54,565 bases of DNA. Source: a virus. Its lineage: Duplodnaviria > Caudoviricetes. Below are positions 13,111 through 53,667 of this stretch, in pieces; position 1 is the first letter of the stretch, and each line of letters begins with the position of its first letter. The stretch spans positions 1 through 54,565 of IMG/VR virus record IMGVR_UViG_3300017910_000855, one strand, 5' to 3'. Made by a program: the position numbers and the translations under genes. The notes below the pieces were generated by a model. It was not told the DNA's origin. It ran no database searches and saw only the letters and a list, made by a program, of their open reading frames with translations.

Positions 13111-14070
13111 ATGATAAATTCGGTTAGAAACACAGTATTGTCTATACTTAATAAAAATAATTACGGATACATTTCTCCCTCTGATTTTAATTTGTTTGCC
13201 AAACAAGCACAGTTAGATATATTTGAGGATTATTTTTATCAGTATAACTATCAGCTTAATAAAGAAAACCAAAGAGCATCAGGTACAGGATATGCTGATA
13301 TTACTAAAGGTTATGAAGAAGTGATAAACATTTTTTCAGAAACCAAGTTTCTATTGCATAATGTAAATAACAAATTTTTTACACCAAGTTTAGTCACTAC
13401 AAATGATAACTATTATCTTTTAAATAAAGTATTAGTTTACACTCGACTGCTAACTTCAGGTGTAAATACCGCAACACAATTAGGAGCTTTAGTAGATAAC
13501 AATGCCAACTTTGTGGCAGCAGGAGTACAGGTTGGAGATATAGTGGGTAACACCACAACTAATCAAACTGCTTTTGTTTCTAATGTTACTATAAGTACAC
13601 TTATATTGGTAGATGAGTTAGGAAACGCTGCAAATATATTTGCCAACTTTCCTGAAGGCTATGTAATATATGATGATAGTGTTGTTAACGAAGCGGAAAA
13701 AGTAACGCAAAGTAAAATTACAATGCTTAACAATTCTTTGTTAACTGCTCCATCTACAATGTTTCCGGCATACACTCAGCAAGAACCTAATTTAACTTTA
13801 TTTCCTGCAAGTATAAATACTATCGGTGCAGTTCTGTGTCAATACATAAGGTATCCAAATGACCCCAAGTGGACATATGTTAACCTTACAGGTGGAGAGC
13901 CTACGTTTGACCAATCGCAACCGGACTTTCAAGATTTTGAGTTAACTATATCTGATGAACCTACATTGGTATTGAAGATATTGCAGTACGCAGGTATGTC
14001 AATAAGAGAAGTATCTGCGGTGCAGTTTGCTCAGGGATTAGAACAAAAAGAAGACCAAGACGAAAAATAA
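13111..14070 (+). CDS. Tail ring/tubular (head-tail adaptor) protein
   Basis: MINSVRNTVLSILNKNNYGYISPSDFNLFAKQAQLDIF N-terminus and YIRYPNDPKW resemble crAss-like ring proteins; start moved to ATG 13111. Confidence 0.65.
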   Translation: MINSVRNTVLSILNKNNYGYISPSDFNLFAKQAQLDIFEDYFYQYNYQLNKENQRASGTGYADITKGYEEVINIFSETKFLLHNVNNKFFTPSLVTTNDNYYLLNKVLVYTRLLTSGVNTATQLGALVDNNANFVAAGVQVGDIVGNTTTNQTAFVSNVTISTLILVDELGNAANIFANFPEGYVIYDDSVVNEAEKVTQSKITMLNNSLLTAPSTMFPAYTQQEPNLTLFPASINTIGAVLCQYIRYPNDPKWTYVNLTGGEPTFDQSQPDFQDFELTISDEPTLVLKILQYAGMSIREVSAVQFAQGLEQKEDQDEK

Positions 14071-21000: not shown

Positions 21001-24000
21001 AACAATACAAGGCTCATTAAGTATCACAGATTGTAGTGATGTTTGTCAGACTTATACATTAGAGAATACCACTAACAGTGTGAGAGCGGTAGAATACAAA
21101 GACTGTAATGGTGTAACTCAAGGTGCATCTATAGACCCATTTGGCACTCTTACTATTTGTTTAACTGAAATGGTAACAGACCCTAACATTGATTGGTTAG
21201 ATATAAATCTTGTTAGTTGTACGTGTTTAAATATAAGAGTTCAGCAGTGTAGATTAGATGGAGTTGTTGAGCAAGAGGTTTTAACTAACACTCTAAACGC
21301 AAGTGTAGGAGACTTTATATCTATTGATGCTGACCCTAATTGTGCTTGGGAAGTAATTGAACTAACTACTGATGGAGTTACAGGTCCTGATGCAGTGGCT
21401 TTACTAAACATAAACGATTGTACTGAAGTTTGTCAAACTTACACTTTAACAAATGTAGGCACAGGTATAATTTCAGTTAATTATCTTGATTGCGATAACA
21501 ATTCACAAACCATTGGTGTTGAAGTAGGAATCCCTCAAACCATCTGTGCTAAAGATATAACTAATGTACCTGACATTACGGTGGCTTTAACTGATTGTAC
21601 TTGTACAATTGTTCCAAACGAGAAATGGTTAATTCAACTTTGTTTAGACTCTGTATTATTCCCTTCAGGTGGGATAACTGCGATAATAGAAGCTCCAAGC
21701 GGTTTGCTTTCTGTAGGAGATTTTGTTTCAATACAAAACTTTAACCCTCAACCACCTCAACCAAACAATGCAGATTGTGCTTGGCAGGTTATTGGAAGTT
21801 CTGAAAGCAATCCAACTGAAACATTTAAAAACAAATTGAGTATAACTGATTGTACAGACAACTGTGTAACTTACGTAGTTACTCTCGCTCAAGGTGCTCA
21901 ACCTGTAACAATAGAATACATAGATTGTGACGGTAACACACAAACAAATACTCTTGTTAGCGGACAACCGCAAAATAACTATATGTGTTTGAAATCCGTT
22001 GTTTCTATATCAGGAGACACAAATAACATAGATGCTTCTCTTTATAATTGTGGATGTTTGTCTAAAAAACAACTTCGCCTTTGTGAGGGGGGTACAACTT
22101 CTAATCCTGTTCCAACTCAAAACTTAGTTGTGGATGACCCTACATTTGCTATTGACATAGGAGATATAGTTATCGCTAATGATGGTACGTATGAATGTAG
22201 CTATACCGCAATTGACTATGCTCCTGAATTAACCCCTGTTACAGGTACAGTTTCTTCTGTAGACAAGACAGGAGACTGTGCTGATTACTGTAGAGTATAT
22301 AGAGTGTTCGAACAATCAGGAGGAACTCAAAGTGTTACATTTAGAGATTGCTCAAATAGTTCATTGATAATAACTTTCAATTATACCAACACAGGTAGTA
22401 ATCCTCTATTTATTTGTGCAAGGGAAATAATTAATTATTCAGGAAGTCCAAGTATAAGAGTGGAGGAATGCGACTGTGACAACACGTGGTTATTACGTAT
22501 TTGTAGACCACCAAACACAGGTAATGCAACCGGCTCTCCGGATACAATTTATGGAGAAGGAGCTACAAACAACTTGAATATAACTACAGGAGACGTAGTT
22601 AATGTAGGGGGTTGTGCTTATAATGTTATAGCTCAAATGAAAGACCAAAACACCACTCCTGTTACTATAGATTCTATAGCTGCAGTATCAGATTGTGATG
22701 GTGTATGTGTTGAGATGGAAATAACTAACATATCAGGTTCAACTACTTCATCACAAAACTATGTAGACTGTAATGGTGTGACACAAAACACAGGTAGTAT
22801 TGCACCGGGCGATTCACTTACAGTCTGTATGGCAGGTGGACAAGGTGGATGGGTTCCAAGTTTGAATACATCAGTATTTTCTGCAGATGTAGTTGGGTGT
22901 TCTTGTTCAATTGTTCCTACGTATAGGGCAGAAATCGTGAATACTGCAACTTTCTATGGAGGCGGTATAGCTCCCAACAACTATACACTTAACCCTGTGG
23001 TTGATTCGTATTATGTATATGATACACAAAACCAATTAGCAATTAATGACTTTATAGATATAGGTGGTTTGATGTATGAGATAACTCAAACAGAACCTCC
23101 AATGTCTAATCCTCCACTTCCATTGCAGTTTCCACCACCTGCAGGTACATTTACTAAGTTGACAGGAGTGTCTGCATCAGATGCGTGTGCTCAGTATTTA
23201 GTAAAGTGGCTTACTTCAGGAACTTTTTCATACGTTGATTGTAACGGAAATAATGGTGGAATGAGTAGAGCTGCCGGAACTGAAGCAATAATTTGTATGA
23301 GAACCGTGAATCCATCTACTTCTGCGTCTTTTACAATAGACCTTTATGGAAGGGGAGATTGTAACACGGGCATAACGGAAATAAGACAAGCAAGTTTATG
23401 TAATCTTGGTAATCAAACTCCTGACCCTACCGCATTCCCATCAAGTATATTTAATATCCGTTTTGATAATTCATTAGGAAAATATCAAACAGGAGACCAA
23501 GTGTGGGTTGGAGATTACAAATATAATGTAGGTGGAACTACTGTAACTAACCCAACAGATTTATCTTATGTTACAGATTTCCAACCTAATAACTGTGAAA
23601 GCGGTTGTGCTACTTATAGTGTAAGAATGACAAGCGGTAGTGACTTGCTTTCTTATATAGGATGTAACGGAGACACTGAAGCTATAACAGTTACTACTAC
23701 CCCACAAACTATTTGTGCTCAATCTTTTAACTCAGCTTTCCCACCATTAATGCAGGTTACAATGACACAACCTTGTTGTGGATATGGGTATGATACAGGT
23801 ACAAATACTGCAGCAGTATGTAAAGAAATAATGGTTACACGAATCCAAAACACTTACCCTTATGGAGCCGTGTACGCAAGAGATTGTAATTTAGGTAATT
23901 TAGTTACACTTCCTATTAGTGCTCAAGGTTTCTATGACAGAAGTAAAGGATGTATATCTCAAATTACAGGTATTAATGGTTCGGTAAGAATCCAAACAAT

Positions 24001-29825: not shown

Positions 29826-32800
29826 ATGAACGAGGAATACTTACAGGAACTCTACAACTATTTAGGTCAGAATGACGAGAGTTTTTCTGCAGAAGTTGAT
29901 TTTGCTACATTCACTTCGGATATGCAAGACCAACAATATGCTGCTCAAATATATAATTATTTAGGTGGTCTCGATGACACATTTAAAATGGAAGTAAATG
30001 TGAATCAGTTCTTTGAAGATATAGGAGCAGTAAAAAAAAAAGACGAACCAAAACAAAGTGGGGATTTACCTTCGGAAGATGGTTCATCGGAATCAGTCGA
30101 GATTGAAGAGGTTGATTTCAACACCCTCAAAACTCCAAATCCAAATGAAGTTATAGGAAGAGACACAAGAGCTGCAGACTATGTAGACCCTATGACGATG
30201 GTAGGAATGTATCCTGACCAAAACACTCTTGATTTAGCTCGTGCACAACAAGCTGCAGATTTTAAATTTACTGCTCAACTTGTTCAACAAGATGAGCCTG
30301 AACTCACAGAGATACAAGCTCAAGAGGAAGCAGAAAGAGCAGTTAACATTGAAACTGAAACTACAGGTCGTGAAGAAGTAATTCAAACTCAAGAGTTTAA
30401 CGATGCTCTTAGCAAAACTAATGTTGAAGCTATACAAATGGAAGAGGGAGAAGCAGTTCCTTATTTCAACGATATGTATTCTCAATACGGTTTTGTTTTT
30501 AGACCAATAGGTTTAGGAGATGCAATGGAAGTTACTACTGTGTTAGCAGATGGTAGTGTGGCTAAAGAAGAGATTGACTTAGACCCTTTTACTACCAAAG
30601 GTGCAGAAACAGAATCACAAAAACTCAAAGCGTTTGTACAGAAATACGCTAAAAAACCTGAAGAAGCAAGAGAGGAAGCTGAAAGCAACTTTGCACAAGC
30701 TGCTTTGAAAGCTAAGTATTTACGAAACACTCCAAGAATAAATGCCGATGGAACTGAATCAACTGTAATGTTTCAGTCTGCGGTTATAGATGGGAAGAAT
30801 GTAGTTTACCCAACCTTGTTCCCTATCAATCCAAATTTATCAACTACCAATCCTGAGTATTGGACAGAGTTAGATGGGATGGAAGCCTATGAAGAAGCCG
30901 TAAAACGTGGAGAGGTATTTAATTTTGGAACTGCAGAAGAAGCAGATGAGTTTGCAGCAGGGTCTTGGAAAGACTATAATAGTATTGATGCAGAAGGTAA
31001 TCGTTTCTTTGATGAAAGAGGTTATGATTATTTAGAAGTTCGTAATCAATTTGATGAATATGAAAGAGCACGAGACGTTTCATTTTTTATAGAAGACAGG
31101 TTAAAAGAAGGTAGACAACAATTTGGTTTCGGAGATAAAAAAGAACTTAAAAATCTAACACCTGAAGAGCAAGAAAAGTACGGTTATCTTTATACCGAAA
31201 ACGGTCTTTTACGAGCAGATTTAGAACAAATTCTTGAAAGAGAACAAAAAATAGTTGATGAACTACAAGAGATATATACTGACGATGACCTTCAAGAAGT
31301 AAGAGAAGACTTTGATGTGTTTATTGACAAACAGTTTCAACAACTTAGTCAAGAAGCCTCGCTCAGTAATGCTTCGGCAAAGTATATACAGAATGAATTA
31401 GAAGCAAATTCTTTTGCAGAGTTTGGTGTAGGTATAGAAGAATTATATAACTACATACCTGATGATGTGGAAGGTGCACAAATGAGAGATGCTATTCTTA
31501 CTTCATATCAGGCAAGTAAGGATGTTCAACAATTAGCTGCTGATAAATATGAAGTGGGTCAAACTTTTTTAGATGGAAAGTTTGATGAAGAACTACGTGG
31601 AGAAATAGTAGAGAACTATGCAGGAATGCAGCAACAAATTACTGAAGGTCTTAACAGAGGAAAAGCAGGTAATGAAATACTAAAGATAGCTCTTGGCTTA
31701 GAAGATGTTGACGATGAGGAATCTACTGCACAAATTGCTCAACGTATTGTTGATTTTATGGAGGCATCTAACACAGGTAAAACAAGTAGAGCTATGTCTC
31801 GTTGGCATAGTGCAAGAGGTTTTAGAGAAGCGTGGGATGCGTTTAGTGATAACCCTGCAGAGTTGGCACTTAGTTTTGCAGCCAATAGTATCAGTCAAAT
31901 GCTTCCTTATGGTACTAAAATTATTGGAATATCTACAGGTTCAGGTATTGCTACAGGTGCGGGAATCGGAGCAACCGGTTTTGTCACAGGTCCGGGTGGA
32001 GTATTAACCACAGGTGGAGGTGCAATTGCAGGTGGTGCTTGGGGTTTGAGAACAGGGTTTGCTGCAACGTCACTTGCGTTAGAGTATACTAATGCGGTTA
32101 TGGAGGCAATGACCAACAATGGTTATGATGTCTTAAATTCTAATGACGTAGCTATTGCTTTGAGCGATGAAAATGTTTGGGCAGAAGGAAGAGAACGAGG
32201 ATTAAAAAGAGGTATACCTATCGCTATGGTAGATATGCTTTCATCCGGTCTTGCAGGTCGAGTATTTAAGGTAGGAAAAACTGCAAGTCGAGGAAGACGA
32301 TTAGGTGTGCAAGTTGGAGAGCGTTTAGTTTTTGACCCGATAGCAGAAGCAACAGGGGAATTGGCAGCACAAATAAATGTAGGAGATGAAATAGACTATA
32401 AAGAGATATTTGCAGAAGCCATAGGTGGTATTGGTAACAATGCACCTTTCGCAGCTTTAAATATGGCTCTTGATGTACGAGCACAAAACAACACTAACAT
32501 AGCAAATGACCTTACTACTATAGCCGGTATTAACAGAGAGGTTGGTGGGATATTCAAACCAACTCCAACTCGTGTTTCTAATTGGGCAAACAATATGGAA
32601 CGTCTTGGTCAGATAAGTAAAGAAACAAACCAAAGAATACAACTTAATTTAGGTCTCAGACAAGACGCACTAAACGTATTAGAAACTACTCAAGGCAAGG
32701 TAGATGGAGATGTATTAAACAGAACAATGGAATTGTTGGCTGCCAAGCAAGAGCTTGAGTCTACTCCAAACAGAAAGCAAGTCTTTGCATCCAAGATAAA

Positions 32801-35800
32801 AGAAATTAATACAGAACTTGCAGAGTTAGCGGAAACAAAAAAAGTAAGACCTTCTGTAAGCACGGCTACTAACCAACAAATAGAACAAGGAAATACTTTT
32901 CAGCAAGGATTCCAAACAAACGTAGCAGGTATAGGACTTGTAGAGCAAACTTCAGATACTGATATAAGAGAAACGGCACAATCAAAATATACTATCAATG
33001 GTAAATCGTTAACACGTAGAAAGTTTTTGAACAGAATTAACGATATGTCTCCCAAGCAGTTAAAGGCAGCCAACATTACCATAGATAATGATGAGCAAGT
33101 AACTGATATATTAACTGAAAAATTTGGAACAGATGCCATTCAAGAGCAAGAAACAGGAAGCGTATCTCCGAATCAACGAACCGGAGATATACAATCGTTG
33201 GAAGAAGCGGTACGGACCGTTCAGCAAGAACAAACCACAGAACCTGAGACCACTCAGGAGGGTACGGTAGTAACAGAAGAACAAACTGTAGAGGAGCAAC
33301 CTGATGTAACTCCACAACCTGCAGTAGTTCCTCAATCACTTGTAAGACCTACACGTGCAGACGTTACTGCATTTGACAACAATACAATAGATGAAGCACG
33401 ACTTGACAGAATCCTTGCAGGGATAGCTGACAAGCAAATCGCAAACAAAAAACTTACAGTATTTCAGCAGAGAGTAGCAGAAAATAATCAAGCACGTATT
33501 GATGAAATAGTGTCTTCAAAGACACTAACAGATGAGGTTGCTGATTTAGAAGCAACTCTACAAACCCCTAAAGGAAAAGTAGATTTTAAATCAGAGTCTA
33601 AGTTTGTGCCTGATACTGATGAGGTTTCGCAAATAACCAAGACCATAAACGAGTCGCAGTCCGGTAATGTCTTTACAGATTTAGAAGAAACTACAGATGA
33701 ATCAGCATCAATAAATGTAGACGAACTAAATCAACGAACGGACAATGACATCCAAAGCATTGAAGATTTATCAATTGTAAAAGGTATACCGGTGGTCTTC
33801 ACTATTTCAGACCAACTAACTACGGGTCCTGTTACAAACGAATTGACAGGTAATACCATTGATAACCTTAGAGGTGGATTAGGATTTACCGGAACTGAAG
33901 GTAATCAAAATGCAGCGTGGGCAAACACTACCGAAGCAGAAGCAGGTACTATAATTGAGAAAGCTACGCAGGTATATGAAGCTAACAAACCAACCTTTGA
34001 AGAGTTTTGGGCAGCTAATCCTGAATACAATGGACACGTTCCTATGCCTGTTGTTAAAATGGGAGAAGGTTCTATTCTTTCAAATGAAGCTACTTTCCGG
34101 GTGTTTAAAGATAATTTAAGTAAAATACCTGAAGCTAACAGAAAGAAAGCCTTAGACGAGCTTGTAAGCAATTTACAAGCACGTATAGATGCACGTCAAG
34201 CAACAATAGATAAAGGTCAAGCATCCGAGTTGACAATAAGAAACTATAAAAAAGAAGTAGCAGGACTACAAGAACTAATCAAATTGATTAATGAAAGCGA
34301 TGCTAAACTACTTGATGATGTGGTATCAACAGAGTTTATACAACAACTGTCTCTTCCTACACGTAGAAGTTTTATAGAGCGTTTGACTTTTGGTCAACCT
34401 AATAGAGCACGTACATCTAAAAAACCAAGTAAGGGTCAAAAGAAAATACCTAATATACTTATTGAAGGTATGGACACTGACGCAGTTAATCTTGTACACC
34501 TTGCTACAATTACAGACTTAATTACAGAACCTCAGCTCAAAGATGTTCCTCAACGTAGTATCATTGCGTTACAAGCAGTAGATGTTTTGAACCCTGAAGT
34601 AATTAAAAGTGTACACCCTAACTATCCGTTTGGTGTAAAAGGTAAAACAATTGGAGTTCTACAAAATCCACAATCCATTGTATCAGTATATCCTGAAGCA
34701 TATCAAAATGCTATTAGAGGTTTAGTTGCTGAAGAAGGTAAAGGTAAAGTAGTTACAGAAGGTCAAAGAAAGAGAGCTACTATAGAAGAAAGAAAATCAA
34801 TGCCAAAAGCAGGGGAACTTGCACCATCAAGTGTAGGTACTATCCTTACAGAAACTCTTGGTGTTCAAAACGGACTACCAAATACGGAGTTTATTGGAGC
34901 TATATCGCAAGGTAATGTAGACAACGCTACCAAGTTAACTGCTTTTATGAACATAGCTTTCCCTCAAACAAACATTACAACAGATAGAGCTACGTTCGAC
35001 ACAGTAATGGAGCAAGAGAACGTACAAAAATACAAGAAGGGAGACCAAATTATTTATGGTGTTACAGTTGATGGAGATATTTATATTAATCCTGATGTAC
35101 ACAATTCAGAGTCTGCACTGTTCAATACTTCGATTCACGAGATGGGTCACGTATGGACTGATTATCTACAGACTACCAAGAAAGGTAAAGCAATATACGC
35201 TAAGGGTGTCAACCTTGTAAAGCAAACACAAGAATATCAAAGACAGTTAAAGAAGTTTGATGGCAACGAAGCTAAGGCTGCTAATGAAACTATAGCCATC
35301 TTGATTGGAAACAAAGGACAAACAATAGCAGATGCATCTTTGAAGTCTAAGTTCCAACAGTGGTTGCTTGGAATGTGGAACTATATTAAGTCGCAGTTTA
35401 CACAGACTCAAGACTTAACCGCAGAACAAATACAAGACCTAACTCTTGATGAGTTTATTGGGTCCGCACTTGCAGATATATTTGCAGGTAAGCAAATCAA
35501 ATTGACTGACAGTCAATTAAAGAAAATGAAAAACCCTGAAGCTGCATTTAGTAGTGAGATGTCTATCACTGCTATTGTAGAACGAGGTAGAGAGAATGGG
35601 TTTTCTGATGCGTCTATACGAGAAGTATTAAGAGGCAGAGGTTTTGCTGCAGCAGATATTAACGAAGCTATGACTTATCAGGTAGACCTCTTCAACGAGT
35701 TACCTTCAGAGTTCAGAAGAGTTGAGGGTGGTATTCTACGTGCGGCTAAATTATTTAATGATGTCAATGTAGCATTACAAAAGTTCGCTACATCAGGCAG

Positions 35801-38800
35801 ACCTAATGTTATTGGTAGAAGAAGAGTTAAATCTTTTGCAGACATTCGTCAAAAAGCACAGGAGTTAATTCAAGACCATCCTATATATAAAGAACAAAAC
35901 GAACAAGTTCAGATGGAACTTCGTAGTGGTTTAGACAGGTCTCTTGGTTATAGAGGAAATAAAAATGTATCTCAAGAGATAGGAAAAATAAGAGAGGCAC
36001 TAAAGCAAAGAAGAGTAGGAGCAAAAAATTTAAAAGACGCACAGTTGCGTTTAAAGAATTTTATCAGAGCCAACTTACCTAAGTCTAAAAACTACAGTCA
36101 AGCACAGATAAACAGATTAATAAACACTGTAGCCAATACTAACTTAGATAACTTTCAAGCTCAAACCGAAAAGGTTTTGAAGATTGTTGAGCAGCAAAGA
36201 GCTAAGATAAAACGTGATGTTATTGCTGATATAGTTAAAACAGTAAAAGCAAAAGCACGACCAAGAAAACAATCAGGTAAGCCAAGACCGAAGGGTATTG
36301 ATGCGATAGGACAAGTAGTATTTGCTAACATTAAAACTGTAATGGATGCAGTTAGCATAACCAATCCTGAAGCAAGAGCTCAGGCATTACAAGATATTAA
36401 AGATAAGTTAGATGCGAATCGTATTGTAATTGACAACGCTATTCAGAAGCAGATAAACAATGAAGAACTGACTCTGCAGGAGGAAAGTTTGATGCAATTA
36501 CAGTTGGCTTATGACCAATTCTCTGACCTTGATACTGCATCTTTGGAGGTAGCACAAGCACTACTTGAAGATGTAAAGCAGCAAAAAGCTGAATCAATTT
36601 TGCGTTTTAACAACAGAAGACTGCAAAAAGCTGCAAGAGCCGAAGCAGTAGCAGAAGAAGCTACCAATCAAATTAAAGAAACTAATGCAGATTTATTTAA
36701 TGAAGATGGTAGTTTAAAGGATAGTAATGAGCTTAATGAAGATAGAGATGCTATTCAAAAAGACTTCACTGCTCGTGGTATTGTAAAGAAAGTGTTCTTA
36801 AAAATAAGAGACAATATATTTGGTAGAGCACAAAGCAAGATTACTAACTTTAAAAATCTACTTACGCATTTAGGTACGGTCACAAACTTTTTAGATAGAA
36901 AAAACAAAGGACTAAATATATTCCGTGACAAAGTATATCGTAAACTAAATAGAATGGAAGAGGTCGCACTTCAGAATATGAGAGTGATGCGACAAAAGGT
37001 AGATGAGATTGCAAGTGAAGCCGGGATTGAAGGTGGTTTCATAGGGGTAGAGAGTTTAGTAAACAGAGCTTTAGGTACAAGTAAAACAGGTGTGCCTAAT
37101 ACTAAAACATTAAATTTAGTTACAACTAAAACAGGTAGAAAATACAAGTCTGAGTTCAACGCAAATCAATTGCTTAGAATATATGCATTAAGTAAGAACC
37201 CTGTTCAACGTGCAAAATTAGAAGCACAAGGAATCACAGATGCGGTGTTAGCTGATATTGCTACAGACTTGGGTCCTGAACTTACTTCGTTTGCAGACAA
37301 GATGGTTGACTATCTAAGTACAGATTACTTCAATCAAACCAATTCAGTTTACAAACAAGTGAACGGAGTTAACTTAGGATTTGTAGAGAACTATTTCCCA
37401 ACTAAAACTATTGCAGCTAAAGTAGATGCTAAGATGTTGGAAGACGGAGACTTCAATGGTATCTTCTCTGCCGAAACTGCACCTGCATTTAAAGACAGGG
37501 TAGACTACGGTAGTGATGTTAATTTAAAAGAAGGAACATTTACAAATGTATTGATGAACCATATGGAAACTATGGAGCGATACAAAGCGATGGCTGCAGG
37601 TGTTCAAGAGCTGAACTCCTTCTTTAATATACCTGCAGTTAATACATTGCTTGATGTATCAGGAACTAAGACATTAGTAAAAACATTAGTTAATGCAACA
37701 GTTAATCCTCAATCGGCTGCCAAAGCAGACGGTGTGAGCAGTGGTGTATTAGAATGGTTTCAGAGAAAGTTTACTTCTTTTGCATTAGCATTCAAAGTAA
37801 TTCAAATTGCAAAACAGGCAACATCTTTTGTCAATGCATTTGAGCAATATAGTTACTTACCTAAAGACAGTAAAGTTCCAAAAGTATTACAAGGACCGCT
37901 TGACCTTATGATGTTTACTGTAGACGGTGCAGGTGTCTTGTTTGATATGGCAAAAGACCTTGTAGGTTTGGATGGAGCAATATCAAAAGCTCGTAAGATG
38001 TCAGCTCAGTTTGACCAACGTGTACGTGAAGGTTTAGAGGGAGATGTGTATGGACTTGAAACCGGTAGCCAAACATTTAAACAAGCCGGTAAAGGAACAG
38101 GTTTGTACAGAAGATTTGTGGATGGATTTAAAAGACTCTCTTCACGACCAACTATCATCGGAGATATAATGGGAGTGATGGGTTATTATATAAACTACAA
38201 ACGTAATATCGCTAATGGTATGAGTGAGGCACAGGCATTGGAGGAGTTCAATGATTACAATGCCACTCAGCAAACAAGAAGAGCAACAGAAAAAATTCCG
38301 TTACAATTGAAAGGAGACTTTGCTTCTAAAGGATTTACAATGTTTGGTAGTACATTATTCTTGCAAATAAACAAAGTAATGTCAAGTGCAACCAACATAA
38401 TGAGAGCGTTGGGTAGCGGAAAAGTTCCAAGCAAACAAGATATACGAGGATTCTATTTAAACTTTGCAGTTGCCAACATATTGTTTACAGGTATGTCAAA
38501 CATTGCACTTCTTACACGTGGAGATAGTGAAGACAGAGATGCGTTCTATCGTAAATTAAAAGATGCGATGATGGGATTGAACTTAATGTATCAGATTCCT
38601 TATTTGGGTGCAGCAATTGAGAAAGGTATAAACACATATAGAGGAGATAGAAAACCTGTTAGTGATGTTACTAATCCATTTGCATCTATTCAAAGTAAGA
38701 TACAGAAAAACTTTAGAGATAATCCTGACTCAGCATTTAAGAATACCATATTGCCTTTAATTGAAATCGCTATGGGTGCACAAGTGGACCCATTCATTGG

Positions 38801-39116
38801 GATGTTCAATGCAAGTAAAGATATACTAAAAGGAGATATGAGTTCAGAAGAGTATTACAATAATGTATACGACTTCTTAGGTATCACTCCATCATATAGA
38901 CCGGGATATGGACAGAAAGGTTCTTCAGTCAAAGGTATCATTCCACAAGGAGGTATTAAAACAAAGACAGACCTGAAGCGTTACGACCCTGAGTTGTATG
39001 AACAGGTGTATGGAGAGAGAGATAGAATTAAAAAGGAACAAAAAGAATTAAGAAAACAAGCACTTCAAGACTTGGGTTACAAAGAAGTAGGAGGTAAACT
39101 TTATCCTATTGAGTAG
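29826..39116 (+). CDS. Giant internal virion/polyvalent protein with zincin-like HExxH motif
   Basis: 3096 aa, no Cys seen; Gly-rich hydrophobic segment GIATGAGIGATG...GGAWG; SIHEMGHVW at 35136-35150. Confidence 0.75.
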   Translation: MNEEYLQELYNYLGQNDESFSAEVDFATFTSDMQDQQYAAQIYNYLGGLDDTFKMEVNVNQFFEDIGAVKKKDEPKQSGDLPSEDGSSESVEIEEVDFNTLKTPNPNEVIGRDTRAADYVDPMTMVGMYPDQNTLDLARAQQAADFKFTAQLVQQDEPELTEIQAQEEAERAVNIETETTGREEVIQTQEFNDALSKTNVEAIQMEEGEAVPYFNDMYSQYGFVFRPIGLGDAMEVTTVLADGSVAKEEIDLDPFTTKGAETESQKLKAFVQKYAKKPEEAREEAESNFAQAALKAKYLRNTPRINADGTESTVMFQSAVIDGKNVVYPTLFPINPNLSTTNPEYWTELDGMEAYEEAVKRGEVFNFGTAEEADEFAAGSWKDYNSIDAEGNRFFDERGYDYLEVRNQFDEYERARDVSFFIEDRLKEGRQQFGFGDKKELKNLTPEEQEKYGYLYTENGLLRADLEQILEREQKIVDELQEIYTDDDLQEVREDFDVFIDKQFQQLSQEASLSNASAKYIQNELEANSFAEFGVGIEELYNYIPDDVEGAQMRDAILTSYQASKDVQQLAADKYEVGQTFLDGKFDEELRGEIVENYAGMQQQITEGLNRGKAGNEILKIALGLEDVDDEESTAQIAQRIVDFMEASNTGKTSRAMSRWHSARGFREAWDAFSDNPAELALSFAANSISQMLPYGTKIIGISTGSGIATGAGIGATGFVTGPGGVLTTGGGAIAGGAWGLRTGFAATSLALEYTNAVMEAMTNNGYDVLNSNDVAIALSDENVWAEGRERGLKRGIPIAMVDMLSSGLAGRVFKVGKTASRGRRLGVQVGERLVFDPIAEATGELAAQINVGDEIDYKEIFAEAIGGIGNNAPFAALNMALDVRAQNNTNIANDLTTIAGINREVGGIFKPTPTRVSNWANNMERLGQISKETNQRIQLNLGLRQDALNVLETTQGKVDGDVLNRTMELLAAKQELESTPNRKQVFASKIKEINTELAELAETKKVRPSVSTATNQQIEQGNTFQQGFQTNVAGIGLVEQTSDTDIRETAQSKYTINGKSLTRRKFLNRINDMSPKQLKAANITIDNDEQVTDILTEKFGTDAIQEQETGSVSPNQRTGDIQSLEEAVRTVQQEQTTEPETTQEGTVVTEEQTVEEQPDVTPQPAVVPQSLVRPTRADVTAFDNNTIDEARLDRILAGIADKQIANKKLTVFQQRVAENNQARIDEIVSSKTLTDEVADLEATLQTPKGKVDFKSESKFVPDTDEVSQITKTINESQSGNVFTDLEETTDESASINVDELNQRTDNDIQSIEDLSIVKGIPVVFTISDQLTTGPVTNELTGNTIDNLRGGLGFTGTEGNQNAAWANTTEAEAGTIIEKATQVYEANKPTFEEFWAANPEYNGHVPMPVVKMGEGSILSNEATFRVFKDNLSKIPEANRKKALDELVSNLQARIDARQATIDKGQASELTIRNYKKEVAGLQELIKLINESDAKLLDDVVSTEFIQQLSLPTRRSFIERLTFGQPNRARTSKKPSKGQKKIPNILIEGMDTDAVNLVHLATITDLITEPQLKDVPQRSIIALQAVDVLNPEVIKSVHPNYPFGVKGKTIGVLQNPQSIVSVYPEAYQNAIRGLVAEEGKGKVVTEGQRKRATIEERKSMPKAGELAPSSVGTILTETLGVQNGLPNTEFIGAISQGNVDNATKLTAFMNIAFPQTNITTDRATFDTVMEQENVQKYKKGDQIIYGVTVDGDIYINPDVHNSESALFNTSIHEMGHVWTDYLQTTKKGKAIYAKGVNLVKQTQEYQRQLKKFDGNEAKAANETIAILIGNKGQTIADASLKSKFQQWLLGMWNYIKSQFTQTQDLTAEQIQDLTLDEFIGSALADIFAGKQIKLTDSQLKKMKNPEAAFSSEMSITAIVERGRENGFSDASIREVLRGRGFAAADINEAMTYQVDLFNELPSEFRRVEGGILRAAKLFNDVNVALQKFATSGRPNVIGRRRVKSFADIRQKAQELIQDHPIYKEQNEQVQMELRSGLDRSLGYRGNKNVSQEIGKIREALKQRRVGAKNLKDAQLRLKNFIRANLPKSKNYSQAQINRLINTVANTNLDNFQAQTEKVLKIVEQQRAKIKRDVIADIVKTVKAKARPRKQSGKPRPKGIDAIGQVVFANIKTVMDAVSITNPEARAQALQDIKDKLDANRIVIDNAIQKQINNEELTLQEESLMQLQLAYDQFSDLDTASLEVAQALLEDVKQQKAESILRFNNRRLQKAARAEAVAEEATNQIKETNADLFNEDGSLKDSNELNEDRDAIQKDFTARGIVKKVFLKIRDNIFGRAQSKITNFKNLLTHLGTVTNFLDRKNKGLNIFRDKVYRKLNRMEEVALQNMRVMRQKVDEIASEAGIEGGFIGVESLVNRALGTSKTGVPNTKTLNLVTTKTGRKYKSEFNANQLLRIYALSKNPVQRAKLEAQGITDAVLADIATDLGPELTSFADKMVDYLSTDYFNQTNSVYKQVNGVNLGFVENYFPTKTIAAKVDAKMLEDGDFNGIFSAETAPAFKDRVDYGSDVNLKEGTFTNVLMNHMETMERYKAMAAGVQELNSFFNIPAVNTLLDVSGTKTLVKTLVNATVNPQSAAKADGVSSGVLEWFQRKFTSFALAFKVIQIAKQATSFVNAFEQYSYLPKDSKVPKVLQGPLDLMMFTVDGAGVLFDMAKDLVGLDGAISKARKMSAQFDQRVREGLEGDVYGLETGSQTFKQAGKGTGLYRRFVDGFKRLSSRPTIIGDIMGVMGYYINYKRNIANGMSEAQALEEFNDYNATQQTRRATEKIPLQLKGDFASKGFTMFGSTLFLQINKVMSSATNIMRALGSGKVPSKQDIRGFYLNFAVANILFTGMSNIALLTRGDSEDRDAFYRKLKDAMMGLNLMYQIPYLGAAIEKGINTYRGDRKPVSDVTNPFASIQSKIQKNFRDNPDSAFKNTILPLIEIAMGAQVDPFIGMFNASKDILKGDMSSEEYYNNVYDFLGITPSYRPGYGQKGSSVKGIIPQGGIKTKTDLKRYDPELYEQVYGERDRIKKEQKELRKQALQDLGYKEVGGKLYPIE
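33510..33525 (+). repeat. 16-bp palindrome copy 4 (in giant gene, read as VSSKT)
   Basis: TAGTGTCTTCAAAGACACTA. Confidence 0.97.
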
Positions 39117-39131
39117 TGTCTTCAAAGACAC
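39116..39131 (+). repeat. 16-bp palindrome copy 5 (convergence point of the two arms)
   Basis: TAG-TGTCTTCAAAGACA-CTA, 39114-39133; both ends are the stop codons of the convergent genes. Confidence 0.97.
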
Positions 39132-50071: not shown

Positions 50072-50103
50072 CAAAGATAGTACAAAGTTTTGAACTATCC
50101 AAA
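50072..50103 (-). promoter_or_regulatory. Bacteroidota sigma-A promoter
   Basis: Minus strand TTTG-N20-TATCTTTG, matching the -33/-7 consensus. Confidence 0.8.
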
Positions 50104-50406: not shown

Positions 50407-50648
50407 TACTCATCCCATTTTAATTCCAACTCGTAGTCGTCTGTTGCAACTTGGTCTATCGTTTGAAAGATTTGCTCCGTAATCCAATCGTTGCTCAGTG
50501 CGTCTTTTAATACTCCCATTGCTACTTCGGAGTCGCATTTGTAATTCTGCGTCACATCTTGCAAGTGCCACAGAGAAAAGGTTTGAAACCCACGCACCTC
50601 TAACTCTTTGCGTAAGTCGTGCGTTGATACTGATTTTAAATTTTCCAT
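50406..50648 (-). CDS. Hypothetical early protein
   Basis: Likely start MENLKS at 50648; the longer ORF-track start runs into the ribozyme. Confidence 0.7.
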   Translation of the reverse strand: MENLKSVSTHDLRKELEVRGFQTFSLWHLQDVTQNYKCDSEVAMGVLKDALSNDWITEQIFQTIDQVATDDYELELKWDE

Positions 50649-50666
50649 AATGTATGATTTAAGATT

Positions 50667-50717
50667 TCTGTTTCTGTCTTTTGACTTCATCAGCACGGAC
50701 ACACATCCGTGAACAGA
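50667..50717 (-). ncRNA. Hammerhead ribozyme, type III, variant (HH-B)
   Basis: Minus strand UCUG-U-U^-CACGGA[UGUGUG]UCCGUG-CUGAUGA-AGUC[AAAA]GACA-GAAA-CAGA; core intact; GUU triplet and A-A mismatch at the base of stem II. Confidence 0.8.
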
Positions 50718-50720
50718 GCA

Positions 50721-50736
50721 GTGTCTTTGAAGACAC
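50721..50736 (-). repeat. 16-bp palindrome copy 12 (intergenic, abutting ribozyme HH-B)
   Basis: GCAGTGTCTTTGAAGACACTGC, 50718-50739. Confidence 0.97.
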
Positions 50737-50747
50737 TGCCTTGCGGT

Positions 50748-51824
50748 TTAGGAGAAACGTAGCACCTCTTCTTGCCCAAACCAAGTATCACATCCATTGC
50801 AGTGATAGTTATTGAAACCGTCAAACTCCAAGTCGTGACAACAGTCAACACAAATAGGATTGTCGTTTGGATTGTAGTCGTCAGCAGACATATCATCAAA
50901 CAAATCAACCTGTGTGCAAGGTGGTGTGTCGTCAACAAAGTCAACTGTATCAACCCAACGTCTTGTTGGTGTAACAACCCTTTGGTAGTCTTTGATATGA
51001 TTACTACCATTCCATTCCTTTTCCTCTTGTGGATTGAAGTATATCCAAGCAGTGATGGTTTTGTTCTTCATCTTGATAGGTATCTGCTTTCTGCAGTACC
51101 ATTGTGGGTGTCCTTCCAATCCGTCTAACCTACGTAGAGTATCGTCTGATACTTTGAACACGTCTACAACTACGTTGTGACCTTTCCCTTTCTTCTCAAT
51201 CAGAAATGGGATACCACGTGATACCATTGGGTACTTGTCTTTGGTCTCGCCTTTTCCAAGATGCTTTGAATTAGTTAGGTAAGTGTAGTAGTTACCAAAC
51301 CCTTTCTTTAGTGTACCATACACCGCCACAACATTGCTTTGCAATACGTTGGTTTTCGAATACCATACTCCGTCTTTCAATGTATACAAATGCTTGTTGA
51401 AGATTTGAAACGAACGAGTACGGGTATTGATTGCCACGAAACGAGCATCGAACTTTGCCAACGATTGTTTCCAAGTGTGACGAGGAGAACGACCCAACTT
51501 GATAGCCAAGTCTTCTGTGTCTGTCATATTTTTGTTGCCGTAGCCACGAACGGTGCCGTTCATCATAAGCAACTCGTCTTTGTTGTTACCGCAGACGAAT
51601 GGGTGTGTGTTTTCCTTACAGATTTTACCAACCGTTGCATACCTGAAGTGTGCAATGTATGGTCTGTCGTTGTCCAACACACCGAACTCTTTTGATTGAT
51701 GATAGCTGACCTCGAACGTGTCGAGCCATACGATTCCCAATCCGTGAGGATTGATACGTGATGAATTTTTAAGTATCTCACGTGATACTGATTTACCTTT
51801 TTGTTTGATAATAATAATACACAT
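50748..51824 (-). CDS. Class II glutamine amidotransferase fused to gamma-glutamylcyclotransferase (AIG2-like) and a C-terminal Zn ribbon
   Basis: True start M-C-I-I (Ntn nucleophile Cys2) at 51824; NPHGLG, HFRYAT, HPF, NG, TDTE; VAVYGTLKKG, LDGLEGHP.WY.R; CVDC...CNGC. Confidence 0.9.
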   Translation of the reverse strand: MCIIIIKQKGKSVSREILKNSSRINPHGLGIVWLDTFEVSYHQSKEFGVLDNDRPYIAHFRYATVGKICKENTHPFVCGNNKDELLMMNGTVRGYGNKNMTDTEDLAIKLGRSPRHTWKQSLAKFDARFVAINTRTRSFQIFNKHLYTLKDGVWYSKTNVLQSNVVAVYGTLKKGFGNYYTYLTNSKHLGKGETKDKYPMVSRGIPFLIEKKGKGHNVVVDVFKVSDDTLRRLDGLEGHPQWYCRKQIPIKMKNKTITAWIYFNPQEEKEWNGSNHIKDYQRVVTPTRRWVDTVDFVDDTPPCTQVDLFDDMSADDYNPNDNPICVDCCHDLEFDGFNNYHCNGCDTWFGQEEVLRFS

Positions 51825-51844
51825 AGTGTTTGGTTTTGTGAGCA

Positions 51845-51860
51845 GTGTCTTTGAAGACAC
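51845..51860 (-). repeat. 16-bp palindrome copy 13 (5' leader between promoter and GATase start)
   Basis: GTGTCTTTGAAGACAC on + strand. Confidence 0.97.
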
Positions 51861-51888
51861 AGAACTCTGATTTAACATTTGATTTAAA

Positions 51889-51920
51889 CAAAGATACGAC
51901 TAAATTTAGACATATCCAAA
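51889..51920 (-). promoter_or_regulatory. Bacteroidota sigma-A promoter
   Basis: Minus strand TTTG-N20-TATCTTTG; shares TTTGGATA with the 50072 promoter. Confidence 0.8.
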
Positions 51921-52082
51921 TTACCTACTGACAACTGCAGTAAATTTATTTCTGACTATCCATTTGTACGTGCCTACATTTTCATTGTAGATTTTGTCAA
52001 TGGCTTCCCATTTCGTGTGAGCAGGTACAACTTTGATTAGCTTACCTGCATACCTTACTTTAAAATATCTCATCGCTTCCAT
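51921..52082 (-). CDS. Small hypothetical protein (53 aa, absent from ORF track)
   Basis: MEAMRYFKVRYAGKLIKVVPAHTKWEAIDKIYNENVGTYKWIVRNKFTAVVSR*; TAATG coupling. Confidence 0.7.
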   Translation of the reverse strand: MEAMRYFKVRYAGKLIKVVPAHTKWEAIDKIYNENVGTYKWIVRNKFTAVVSR

Positions 52083-52249
52083 TACAATTCAAATAATTCA
52101 TCAAGCAAGTAACCTTTGGTTCTGTTGATGTAGTTAATAAAATTGTCGCAATGATTCTTGTCGTTGAACTCTTTGGTCACGACCCACTCGCCACGATTAT
52201 TTCCGTACGAGACTTGTCCTGTCTTGAAGACTAATTGAACTTTGTACAT
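52082..52249 (-). CDS. Small hypothetical early protein
   Basis: Likely start MYKVQL at 52249 after an A-rich leader; the longer ORF-track start overlaps the ribozyme. Confidence 0.7.
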   Translation of the reverse strand: MYKVQLVFKTGQVSYGNNRGEWVVTKEFNDKNHCDNFINYINRTKGYLLDELFEL

Positions 52250-52268
52250 AACTTTTAATTTAATGTTT

Positions 52269-52330
52269 GACATAGAGGTAGTGTCTTTGAAGACACCACC
52301 TTTCGGGTATTCAACCCTCATCAGTATGCC
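52269..52330 (-). ncRNA. Hammerhead ribozyme, type I (HH-C); stem III is the 16-bp palindrome
   Basis: Minus strand GGCAUA-CUGAUGA-GGGU[UGAAU]ACCC-GAAA-GGUGGUGUCU[UCAA]AGACACUACC-U-C^-UAUGUC; all three stems pair, canonical core, CUC triplet. Confidence 0.88.
52281..52296 (-). repeat. 16-bp palindrome copy 14 (inside ribozyme HH-C)
   Basis: GTGTCTTTGAAGACAC on + strand. Confidence 0.97.
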
Positions 52331-52548
52331 TATACTCGGTCTGCTTTCCAACCTTGATAGATTAGTGAAAAGATAACTCCACTAATGAACAACAAGAACA
52401 TTCCAACGAACCCTACATACACCCACTGATACCACACAAAAGTATGTTGTGATATGATGTGAATGAATAAACGTAGCACCATTGATAGAACTCCGATGGC
52501 AACGATTGTTGTTACTGACTTTTCGATTGTGTTAACTAAATTTCTCAT
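52330..52548 (-). CDS. Small two-TM membrane protein flanked by ribozymes
   Basis: Likely start MRNLVN at 52548 (72 aa); two hydrophobic helices. Confidence 0.7.
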   Translation of the reverse strand: MRNLVNTIEKSVTTIVAIGVLSMVLRLFIHIISQHTFVWYQWVYVGFVGMFLLFISGVIFSLIYQGWKADRV

Positions 52549-52575
52549 AATGTTTGATATTAAAATTATTTGTTT

Positions 52576-52626
52576 CCTGTTTCGACCTTTTGGTCTCATC
52601 AGCACAAGCACTCACTTGTGGACAGG
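52576..52626 (-). ncRNA. Hammerhead ribozyme, type III (HH-A)
   Basis: Minus strand CCUG-U-C^-CACAAG[UGAGUG]CUUGUG-CUGAUGA-GACC[AAAA]GGUC-GAAA-CAGG; fully canonical core, GUC triplet, G10.1-C11.1. Confidence 0.93.
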
Positions 52627-52647
52627 GGGAGCATTCGCTCCCTCTCA

Positions 52648-53667
52648 TTATCTCAACCCTTTGGATTGTATTTCCTCTCGGAACTTAGCGAGAGCGATGT
52701 CACTCTCGTCAACTCCACGTTTGATGTATGTACCCCAAACTTGTCGGTTACCGCTCATTGAAAGTCGGTTTGGTCTTCCGCTCCACCACTTTTCGAACCA
52801 ACCGATTGTGCTTTGCTCCACACGACCTGTCTTGACGAACTTGTGAAAGTCTTTTGCCAACTCAATGACCGCATCGGTCTTGGTCTCGTTCTTGTCGTAC
52901 ATTCCCATAAGGATTGGTCTGACTGCATTCCAAAACCCTCGTATGCTCTTGCCATTGACCCCATAGTCAAGTATTAAGTACATTAGCTCGTAACGTCTCA
53001 TCAACTGCTTTACTGACTGCACTCTGCTCGGTATACGGAACTCGATACACTCGTCAACGATTTTGCAAACAGAGTATTTTACTACTCGCTCTTGATGTCT
53101 CTCGAAACGGAACTCACTCATCATTCTTGGATTCCACTTGCAGTAGTGATTCGACAAACGATGTCTGAACACTGACAACAGGATTGATGCATATGGAGCA
53201 ACTTTGTCAGCCAACTCTTGACCTGTCAACCCCTTACAAGCAACTGTGATGTGACCACCGCAACTGCTATCGCTCGGACTGAACTCATCATTGATGATGT
53301 GCTTGGCTTCAACAAACATATTGAACACCTTTGTTCGCCACATTGACTTACCTACCAAAGGTAGAACGTGTGTGACTGCTTCATAACCGCAACTACTATC
53401 AGTCTCAAACCCACAAAATAATGGGTACTCCTTGATTGAACTCCTGTGCAACCTCGTTTTCTCGATTTCAAAACCGATAGTGAACTTGCTCTCGAACTCG
53501 TCTCCGTCTACAACAACATTGGTTCTGTCTGTAGATTGCAACCCTTTGATTTCAGATTGCTTTGCTTTGGTTCTGAAGATTGGACTTGGTTTGCTATGGT
53601 ATGATGATACACTACCACGTCTGTCTGTGTCTCTGATTTCTTCGAACCTTGTTACTAAATTATTCAT
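52648..53667 (-). CDS. Putative amidoligase (COOH-NH2 ligase, glutamine synthetase-like fold)
   Basis: TIGFEIEK, ETDSSCGYEAVT, DSSCGGHITV, IEFRIP. Confidence 0.8.
   Translation of the reverse strand: MNNLVTRFEEIRDTDRRGSVSSYHSKPSPIFRTKAKQSEIKGLQSTDRTNVVVDGDEFESKFTIGFEIEKTRLHRSSIKEYPLFCGFETDSSCGYEAVTHVLPLVGKSMWRTKVFNMFVEAKHIINDEFSPSDSSCGGHITVACKGLTGQELADKVAPYASILLSVFRHRLSNHYCKWNPRMMSEFRFERHQERVVKYSVCKIVDECIEFRIPSRVQSVKQLMRRYELMYLILDYGVNGKSIRGFWNAVRPILMGMYDKNETKTDAVIELAKDFHKFVKTGRVEQSTIGWFEKWWSGRPNRLSMSGNRQVWGTYIKRGVDESDIALAKFREEIQSKGLR

What the first reader, a model, noticed from the sequence alone, without database searches (positions are those of the whole stretch)
50667..52626. Early operon punctuated by three hammerhead ribozymes linked to a genome-wide palindrome
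Seen: within 2 kb, three intergenic gaps on the sense (minus) strand each hold a complete hammerhead fold (CUGAUGA core, stem II, GAAA, stem III, NUH, stem I), at 52576-52626, 52269-52330 and 50667-50717. They follow the amidoligase, the 2-TM gene and the GATase-GGCT gene. Two of the three touch the dispersed 16-bp palindrome. Established: hammerheads self-cleave after NUH, leaving a 2',3'-cyclic phosphate and a 5'-OH; hammerheads are known in phages but their roles are mostly unexplained. Inference: the phage cuts its early polycistronic RNA into gene-sized units without host RNases, functionally like RNase III processing of T7 early mRNA. Each upstream product would end in or near a hairpin, and the 5'-OH ends could be more stable.
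Basis: partly seen in the sequence, partly recalled or inferred. Interest (0 to 1): 0.96.

Follow-up and report, generated by a model that had tools for sequence, protein, structure and literature searches.

The report
Three hammerhead ribozymes between phage genes
Three real self-cutting hammerhead RNAs sit between early genes of an uncultured marine phage, each just behind a stable hairpin; this is a clean new example of an arrangement known in phages since 2011, and its purpose is still untested.

Summary
A descriptor scan finds three complete hammerheads in the window, all on the minus (gene-sense) strand at the stated coordinates. Shuffled windows give 0.02-0.04. Forty of 41 related viral contigs carry such motifs, always on the sense strand, with heavy compensatory change in all three stems. 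Rfam's curated models miss them.

Cleavage always falls 2-9 nt behind a strong hairpin. This is often the lineage's own dispersed palindrome, which forms stem III in type I copies. 85% of 55 type III gaps have such a hairpin, against 12% of 243 gaps without a ribozyme.

The most likely role is host-independent cutting of early transcripts into hairpin-ended upstream RNAs and 5'-OH downstream RNAs. This matches the hypothesis of Perreault et al. 2011 (PMC3088659), who showed in vitro cleavage of three comparable arrays.

No RNA evidence could be obtained here. A host-type promoter-like site lies inside the "operon".

This scan has already noted hammerhead arrays in phage early operons on much other DNA, and palindromes used as stem III. 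Verdict: a new member of a known kind, of moderate interest.

The parts
52576..52626 (-). HH1, a type III hammerhead. Stem III is 5 bp, the site is GUC (H17 = 52621, cut 52621/52620), stem I is 6-7 bp with a UGAGUG-type loop, the core is CUGAUGA, stem II is GACC/GGUC with loop AAAA, then GAAA.
   Evidence: (77.6 bits); weak and misaligned Rfam Hammerhead_3 hit of 21.5 bits
52627..52642 (-). GC-rich hairpin (6 bp, 4-nt loop) between the stop codon of the 339-aa gene and HH1. It would be the 3' end structure of the upstream cleavage product.
52269..52330 (-). HH2, a type I hammerhead. Its stem I 5' strand starts at the last base of the upstream TAG stop. Stem II is 4 bp with a 5-nt loop, stem III is 11 bp, the site is CUC (H17 = 52275, cut 52275/52274). 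A 25-nt leader runs to the AUG at 52249.
   Evidence: 68.7 bits
52281..52296 (-). Copy of the dispersed 16-nt palindrome that forms the apical part of HH2 stem III.
50667..50717 (-). HH3, a type III hammerhead with a GUU site (H17 = 50712, cut 50712/50711) and an A.A mismatch at 10.1/11.1. An 18-nt leader runs to the AUG at 50648.
   Evidence: (73.4 bits)
50718..50739 (-). Extended palindrome hairpin (10 bp; the 16-mer is at 50721-50736). It lies 8 nt after the GATase/GGCT stop and directly abuts HH3.
52648..53667 (-). 339-aa gene upstream of HH1. 'Amidoligase' is only a lead.
52330..52548 (-). 72-aa gene with two hydrophobic stretches, bracketed by HH1 and HH2. The predicted excised RNA is 346 nt (52620-52275).
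50748..51824 (-). GATase-like / gamma-glutamyl cyclotransferase fusion gene upstream of HH3.
51889..51920 (-). Bacteroidota-type promoter-like site (TTTG ... TAnnTTTG) inside the 'operon'. It is followed by palindrome copy 51845-51860 and the AUG at 51824.
   Evidence: strict pattern at the same place in 17 of 29 relatives

Best explanation
The three elements are genuine, selected hammerhead ribozymes (two type III, one type I) in the leftward early/replication arm. The phage is an uncultured marine podophage related to the Flavobacterium elemo phages.

Shown: the motifs, their strand, their position in gene gaps, and their conservation with compensatory changes. Also shown is their tight coupling to a hairpin that ends 2-9 nt before the cleavage site.

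Inferred: as RNA polymerase reads through a gene gap, the ribozyme folds and cuts itself without any host RNase. The upstream RNA then ends in a stable hairpin plus a 2',3'-cyclic phosphate. With type I copies the whole ribozyme body stays on this 3' end. The downstream RNA starts with a 5'-OH 25-65 nt before the next AUG. With type III copies the ribozyme body stays on this 5' end.

The effect would be that transcription continues while each gene or gene block gets its own protected ends, and so its own stability and translation. This works like RNase III processing of T7 early RNA.

At the junction after the GATase/GGCT gene, the closing pair of stem II is A.A or U.U in most relatives. This may set a slower or partial cut there (inference).
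For: Three full motifs were found against 0.02-0.04 expected, and each folds to the hammerhead junction as its minimum-energy structure.

Forty of 41 related loci have at least one motif, and every hit is on the gene-sense strand. The type III model gives 69 matches in 43 sources. Seven of these were not found by my descriptor. The type I model gives 35 matches, 12 of them outside its training set.

On 57 distinct type III sequences, 241 cells show changes on both sides against 75 in shuffles. Pairing is 94.8%, against 31-40% when the partners are slid. The core is invariant, and loop residues in loops I and II are invariant.

The same three-ribozyme order occurs in L002 and L004, where the 339-aa protein is 60% and 55% identical. 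A ribozyme follows the GATase/GGCT gene in 17 of 30 relatives.

Layout: for type III the median distance is 33 nt from the stop and 24 nt to the AUG. In 51 of 60 a hairpin ends within 3 nt of the ribozyme. 45 of 60 have an upstream fold of -10 kcal/mol or better, against 1.9% of random 32-mers. 85% of 55 type III gaps have such a hairpin after the stop, against 12% of 243 gaps without a ribozyme.

Three comparable arrays were shown to cleave in vitro, and the same hypothesis was stated, by Perreault et al. 2011.
Against: There is no cleavage or RNA-end evidence. The RNA-library runs gave only short, low-depth contigs, and one 151-nt contig spans HH3 uncut. It may be DNA or uncut RNA.

Rfam's curated hammerhead models do not reach threshold for any of the three.

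HH3 lacks the G10.1-C11.1 pair. Perreault et al. call this pair the most conserved after 15.1-16.1.

The ribozymes are dispensable. 13 of 30 relatives lack one after the GATase gene. One relative has C for U at core position 4. The nearest GenBank phage, MW202828.1, shows none in 14.9 kb.

A promoter-like site inside the block means that not all genes need come from one transcript.

My sequence sets were chosen by a pairing descriptor, so the percentage paired is partly circular. My gene calls for the gap statistics are crude.
Confidence: 0.6

Rival explanations
1. The ribozymes cut, but their main use is tuning rather than punctuation. Slow or conditional cores would set fixed or condition-dependent ratios of joined to separated transcripts, or would destabilise one side, so as to time early gene expression.
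For: At the junction after the GATase/GGCT gene, 16 type III copies in relatives are 6 A.A, 6 U.U and only 3 G-C at 10.1/11.1, plus one with a core change. Over all sites the 54 distinct copies are 32 G-C, 14 U.U and 8 A.A. Perreault et al. raise regulated cleavage for slow phage variants.
Against: No ligand-binding or switch element is visible. The loops that should give fast folding are conserved in the variants as well. The effect of A.A in this extended context is unknown.
Confidence: 0.15
2. The link between ribozyme and palindrome is incidental. The palindrome would serve a DNA-level or protein-binding role of its own. Ribozyme stems and gene gaps would simply be places where it is tolerated, and hairpin-plus-ribozyme units would mark or promote shuffling of early gene cassettes.
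For: Only 2 of 15 palindrome copies in the window touch a ribozyme. Copies inside genes are kept at homologous places in relatives in different reading frames, so the word itself is selected. One copy sits in a 5' leader behind a promoter-like site. Gene content between ribozymes differs among relatives. Earlier notes of this scan on other phages reached this reading.
Against: Strong hairpins after the stop are specific to ribozyme gaps: 85% of 55 type III gaps against 12% of 243 other gaps. The flanks of the palindrome covary to extend the stem. HH1 and other copies use unrelated hairpins in the same position. Both points argue for a need for a hairpin next to the cut.
Confidence: 0.12
3. The RNA between two ribozymes, for example the 346-nt piece carrying the 72-aa membrane gene, is excised and its 5'-OH and cyclic-phosphate ends are joined by a host RtcB-type ligase into a circular or spliced RNA.
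Against: The two flanking ribozymes are of different topology and their remnants do not pair with each other. Perreault et al. looked for circular or spliced products in other arrays and found none. No back-joined contig was seen, though the data were too thin to count.
Confidence: 0.04
4. Type III copies mainly trim the 5' ends of transcripts that start just upstream, removing the triphosphate leader, rather than separating cistrons.
For: The cultured elemo phage has a type III copy 14 nt before the first gene of its leftward operon, in the divergent promoter region. Perreault et al. report a similar halovirus HF1/HF2 case.
Against: In the window, HH1 and HH3 sit 21-30 nt after a stop codon with no promoter-like site in the gap. 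Type I copies start on the upstream stop codon and need read-through.
Confidence: 0.06
5. The motifs are chance look-alikes or dead relics without activity.
For: All Rfam scores are below threshold. One relative carries a core mutation.
Against: The shuffle expectation is 0.02-0.04 against 3 found. The core is invariant and the stems covary across 57 and 19 distinct sequences. The strand bias is absolute.
Confidence: 0.02

Closest known systems
Clustered hammerhead ribozymes flanking single genes or short gene blocks in prophages (Perreault et al. 2011, PMC3088659; passages read)
   Same: Several co-oriented hammerheads of mixed types lie between genes of phage origin. The proposed role is the same: processing long phage transcripts into gene-length mRNAs. 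A natural U10.1-U11.1 variant is already reported there.
   Different: Here the host is a lytic-type marine podophage family and not a prophage. The ribozymes are conserved family-wide in the first kilobases of the early arm. Each is coupled to a hairpin or lineage-specific palindrome just 5' of the cut. A conserved A.A variant occurs at one junction. No biochemistry has been done here. Their supplementary alignment could not be opened, so these sequences may already be in it.
Hammerhead ribozyme types III and I (Rfam RF00008, RF00163)
   Same: All core nucleotides, the three helices, the NUH site and the conserved loop residues are present.
   Different: The scores are far below Rfam's gathering thresholds. 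HH1 gives 21.5 against 48.5 bits, and HH2 and HH3 are not reported at all. Standard annotation therefore misses this compact subclass (49-68 nt).
Hammerhead variant HHphage of haloviruses HF1/HF2 (as described in PMC3088659)
   Same: A ribozyme a few nucleotides upstream of an early phage gene. In that case a mapped 5' end lies next to the cleavage site.
   Different: That is a single ribozyme at the head of an operon in an archaeal virus with a variant core. The nearest parallel here is the elemo phage copy, not the window's three.
RNase III processing of phage T7 early mRNA (recalled knowledge; no call)
   Same: It works alike. Cuts between cistrons of a read-through transcript leave hairpins at the 3' ends of the upstream products.
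   Different: T7 uses a host protein enzyme acting on double-stranded RNA sites. Here the RNA cuts itself and leaves 5'-OH and cyclic-phosphate ends. This element is not a member of that system.

Membership tests
Hammerhead ribozyme (class) | Conserved core C3-U4-G5-A6-N7-G8-A9 and G12-A13-A14 | tested here: met
   All three have CUGAUGA and GAAA. These columns are invariant in 57 type III and 19 type I sequences, apart from N7.
Hammerhead ribozyme (class) | Three helices around the core, an A15.1-U16.1 pair and a cleavage triplet N-U-H | tested here: met
   Descriptor hits have stems I/II/III of 7/4/5, 6/4/11 and 7/3/5 bp, with sites GUC, CUC and GUU. The minimum-energy folds agree.
Hammerhead ribozyme (class) | Helices supported by compensatory changes in homologues | tested here: met
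   12 of 16 pairs change on both sides, giving 241 such cells against 75 in shuffles. Slid controls pair at 31-40% against 94.8%. Caveat: the set was chosen by a pairing descriptor. Model hits outside that set exist.
Hammerhead ribozyme (class) | G10.1-C11.1 pair at the base of stem II | tested here: inconclusive
   HH1 and HH2 have G-C and HH3 has A.A. The family as a whole has 32 G-C, 14 U.U and 8 A.A among type III copies. A natural U.U is known. I found no report on A.A.
Hammerhead ribozyme (class) | Self-cleavage giving 2',3'-cyclic phosphate and 5'-OH ends | not testable with these tools
   The RNA-library contigs are uninformative.
Rfam Hammerhead_3 / Hammerhead_1 | Score at or above the curated gathering threshold | tested here: not met
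   No match at gathering thresholds. HH1 gives 21.5 bits against 48.5 and is misaligned. HH2 and HH3 are not listed even on 91-96-nt stretches at E up to 10.
Clustered phage/prophage hammerhead arrays (Perreault 2011) | Several co-oriented hammerheads flanking single genes or short blocks in phage DNA | tested here: met
   Three lie within 1.96 kb, flanking a 72-aa gene and a three-gene block. Relatives have up to five in one 6.7-kb locus by my descriptor (L034). Further viral contigs have up to nine type III model hits in one locus, the weakest near 29 bits.
Viroid-like / retrozyme circular RNA | Unit flanked by like hammerheads whose halves re-pair to allow ligation; non-coding unit | tested here: not met
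   The flanking ribozymes are of different topology and sequence, and the unit between them encodes proteins.

The most novel reading that the evidence does not exclude
The hairpin and the ribozyme form one two-part punctuation module used across a large family of marine Bacteroidota podophages. A lineage-specific RNA hairpin, possibly read by a co-evolving phage factor, marks where messages should end. A hammerhead placed 2-9 nt behind it turns read-through transcription into hairpin-capped 3' ends and 5'-OH leaders without any host enzyme. The choice of type I or type III decides which product keeps the ribozyme body. Conserved weakened cores (A.A or U.U at 10.1/11.1) at one junction act as hard-wired dials for partial cleavage.
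Probability: 0.3. Interest if true: 0.6.

Novelty: new member of a known kind. Interest (0 to 1): 0.4.

Why it matters
The biological purpose of bacterial and phage hammerheads has been open since 2011, and a 2019 review still calls it undefined.

This family offers many natural replicates. More than 120 viral contigs carry the motif. The layout is very regular. The association with a hairpin is clear and testable. One junction has a conserved non-canonical core.

A cultured relative exists: the Flavobacterium elemo phages, with one well-formed copy and one weaker copy.

The result also shows that Rfam-based annotation misses this compact subclass.

It does not reveal a new kind of system.

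Tried and rejected
**Rfam.** At gathering thresholds over the whole window there were no hits. At E up to 10 over the whole window no hammerhead was listed. On 2.1 kb only HH1 appeared, weakly. On two short stretches HH2 and HH3 were not reported. I therefore used my own descriptor and two covariance models.

**DNA search.** Searching the 3.4-kb region against the GenBank phage collection gave no match. Relatives were found through proteins instead.

**RNA evidence.** The run search found only small-share RNA-library holders kept as contigs. Laying four of them gave 15 short pieces at low depth. One 151-nt contig from X5 covers 50603-50753 across the HH3 site. One X3 contig carries a relative's type I ribozyme. 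No starts, ends or joints are usable, so this is no evidence for or against cleavage or circularisation.

**Protein labels.** The 339-aa protein has no Pfam, PHROG or PDB match. The Atlas gives only a lead to Amidoligase_2. The 3096-aa protein has no Pfam or PDB match. I could not test my idea that it holds a virion RNA polymerase, so I dropped it.

**Palindrome as promoter.** I considered this reading. Intergenic copies sit 2-18 nt after stop codons, at variable distances from the next AUG, and one sits at the convergent junction of the two arms. I therefore prefer a 3'-end hairpin reading. The copies inside genes remain unexplained.

**Literature.** Searches for this phage group together with hammerheads, or for a hairpin-coupled layout, found nothing specific. 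Dataset S1 of PMC3088659 may already list such sequences.

**Papers seen.**
- PMC3088659: passages.
- PMC6765202: passages.
- PMC8782182: search listing and start of the abstract only.
Full report
**What is in the sequence**

The minus strand of 50600-52700 carries genes. These are a 339-aa gene, a 72-aa two-helix membrane gene, two small genes, a GATase/GGCT fusion and an 80-aa gene.

- HH1: type III, 52626-52576, GUC.
- HH2: type I, 52330-52269, CUC.
- HH3: type III, 50717-50667, GUU.

My descriptor demands the full core, three helices, the A15.1-U16.1 pair and an NUH site in any of the three topologies. It finds these three and nothing else on either strand.

In 300 dinucleotide shuffles of the window it averaged 0.02 hits. 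Allowing a mismatch at 10.1/11.1 it averaged 0.04, and it never reached 3. Each RNA alone folds into the three-way junction as its minimum-energy structure.

**Curated models miss them**

Rfam gives no match at gathering thresholds. In a 2.1-kb search only HH1 appears, misaligned, at 21.5 bits against a threshold of 48.5. HH2 and HH3 are not reported even when 91-96 nt are searched alone at E up to 10. Membership therefore rests on the defining features and on comparative evidence.

**Relatives**

The window is a linear viral record of 54,565 nt, about 90% complete. It has a plus arm of structural genes and a minus arm of early and replication genes. The 3256-aa protein carries a crAss muzzle domain.

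The nearest GenBank phages are MW202828.1 and the Flavobacterium elemo phages. The primase/helicase is 71% identical to the former, and 41% identical to the latter over the part aligned, 35% of the query.

Protein-guided scans of viral contigs gave 41 loci. These have 46-95% identity to the 339-aa protein or 50-71% to the GATase/GGCT protein. Forty of the 41 carry at least one descriptor hit, every one on the gene-sense strand, with up to five per locus. The one without is cut off at the end of the 339-aa gene.

This gave 57 distinct type III and 19 distinct type I sequences, the window's own included.

On the type III alignment the core is invariant, and so are loop residues in loops I and II. 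Twelve of 16 pairs change on both sides. There are 241 such cells against 75 in column shuffles. Sliding the partners drops pairing from 94.8% to 31-40%.

Because the set was chosen by a pairing descriptor, the percentage paired is partly circular. The diversity of pair types, the absolute strand bias and the shuffle expectation are not.

A covariance model of type III finds 69 places in 43 sources. Seven of them were missed by my descriptor. A type I model finds 35 places, 12 outside its training set. In the window the two models find only HH1, HH3 and HH2.

A core-plus-stem-II word found at least 120 further stretches of viral contigs. In the 80 fetched loci the type III model found 142 matches. 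Up to nine lie in one locus, the weakest near 29 bits.

L002 and L004 keep the same order of three ribozymes around the same genes, with compensatory stem changes.

**Layout**

For type III copies the median distance is 33 nt from the stop codon and 24 nt to the next AUG. In 51 of 60 distinct contexts a hairpin ends within 3 nt of the ribozyme. 45 of 60 have an upstream fold of -10 kcal/mol or better, against 1.9% of 1500 random 32-mers. 37 of 60 hold a GTGTC...GACAC palindrome.

Type I copies begin on the upstream stop codon (median distance 0). They carry the hairpin as their own stem III and cut about 20 nt before the AUG.

In both topologies the cut therefore falls just 3' of a strong hairpin.

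Using crude gene calls, 85% of 55 gaps with a type III ribozyme have a strong hairpin in the 45 nt after the stop. This compares with 12% of 243 gaps without a ribozyme, or 15% of the 167 such gaps of at least 60 nt. The hairpin is thus tied to the ribozyme and is not a default feature of gaps.

**The palindrome**

The 16-mer has 15 copies in the window against 0.05 expected. By its asymmetric centre, 13 follow the gene strand, one is antisense and one is symmetric.

Relatives carry the same word or a lineage-specific one with both arms changed. Their type I ribozymes use their own version as stem III.

Intergenic copies lie 2-18 nt after stop codons, and one forms the whole junction between the two arms. 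About half the copies lie inside genes. Three that I checked are kept at homologous places in closer relatives, at one place in two different reading frames. The nucleic-acid word, not the peptide, is therefore selected.

One copy lies between a Bacteroidota-type promoter-like site and the GATase/GGCT start. The strict pattern is found at the same place in 17 of 29 relatives, each followed by a palindrome, in several lineages one of a different sequence.

Only 2 of the 15 copies touch a ribozyme. The palindrome therefore has a wider role that I cannot name. The ribozymes use it, or another hairpin as in HH1, as the structure next to the cut.

**Variation and loss**

A ribozyme follows the GATase/GGCT gene in 17 of 30 relatives with a complete gene end. 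The 16 type III copies among them are 6 A.A, 6 U.U and 3 G-C at 10.1/11.1, plus one with C at core position 4. Over all sites the 54 distinct copies are 32 G-C, 14 U.U and 8 A.A.

A natural U.U has been reported. The conserved A.A at one junction suggests a deliberately slower ribozyme there, which is inference.

MW202828.1 has none in the 14.9 kb fetched. The cultured elemo phage has a good type III copy 14 nt before the first leftward gene. It also has a weaker type I candidate whose stem II is poor.

**What is known**

Perreault et al. 2011 report that multiple hammerheads often flank single genes or short blocks in prophages. They state that long phage transcripts may thus be processed into gene-length mRNAs. 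They showed cleavage of three roughly 2-kb arrays in vitro and of one in E. coli, and they failed to detect circular or spliced products (passages read).

A 2019 review says this role is still only suggested.

My seven literature searches found nothing on this phage group or on a hairpin-coupled layout. Supplements were closed.

This scan has itself noted such arrays in many other genomes. It has also noted palindromes used as stem III in several, and the same module in a related genome.

**Verdict**

The ribozymes are real and under selection. Self-cleavage is very likely for HH1 and HH2 and likely for HH3.

The best reading is host-independent cutting of read-through transcripts, which gives hairpin-ended upstream RNAs and 5'-OH downstream RNAs. 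That reading is inferred from layout only.

The finding is a well-supported new member of a known kind. Its one useful new point is that the hairpin and the cut are coupled.

Noticed in passing
window 5059-53699 (15 copies): Copies of the 16-nt palindrome inside genes are kept at homologous positions in closer relatives. At one place it is read in two different frames (VSSKT against SVFKDT), usually in variable linker regions. Selection therefore acts on the DNA or RNA word. Its function is unknown.
   Followed up: partly
window 51845-51920 (minus strand): A Bacteroidota-type promoter-like site (TTTG, then 17-23 nt, then TAnnTTTG) is followed about 25 nt later by a palindrome copy and about 20 nt after that by the GATase/GGCT start codon. 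The strict pattern recurs at this place in 17 of 29 relatives, each followed by a palindrome, in several lineages one of a different sequence. A second similar site lies at 50072-50103.
   Followed up: partly
window 39116-39131: The two gene arms converge on one palindrome copy that overlaps both stop codons. No U-tract follows on either strand.
   Followed up: no
window 15002-24772 and 29826-39116: There are two giant structural-arm proteins. The 3256-aa one starts with a crAss muzzle domain (PF25731, E 1.6e-12). The 3096-aa one has no Pfam or PDB match. The elemo phages have a comparable 3694-aa 'structural protein' at the same end of the arm.
   Followed up: partly
L043 (NC_055853.1) 17864-17922 and 16043-16104, minus strand: The cultured Flavobacterium phage elemoF_6-3D has a type III hammerhead 14 nt before gp59, at the head of the leftward operon. 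It also has a weaker type I candidate (44.3 bits, poor stem II) that overlaps the annotated plus-strand ORF gp66. That ORF may be spurious.
   Followed up: partly
L018 7143-7199: At the syntenic place after the GATase/GGCT gene, this relative has C instead of U at core position 4, yet still scores 68 bits. It may be a decaying or inactive copy.
   Followed up: no
related loci, type III copies: The base at 10.1/11.1 goes with the cleavage triplet. U.U copies mostly have GUA, A.A copies GUU or GUC, and G-C copies mostly GUC. This suggests three old paralogous lines of the ribozyme.
   Followed up: no
window 13309-13385 (+): Sub-threshold Rfam match to a eukaryotic snoRNA family (snoR4a, 34.6 bits against 50, E 0.015) inside an AT-rich coding region. 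It is most likely chance.
   Followed up: no
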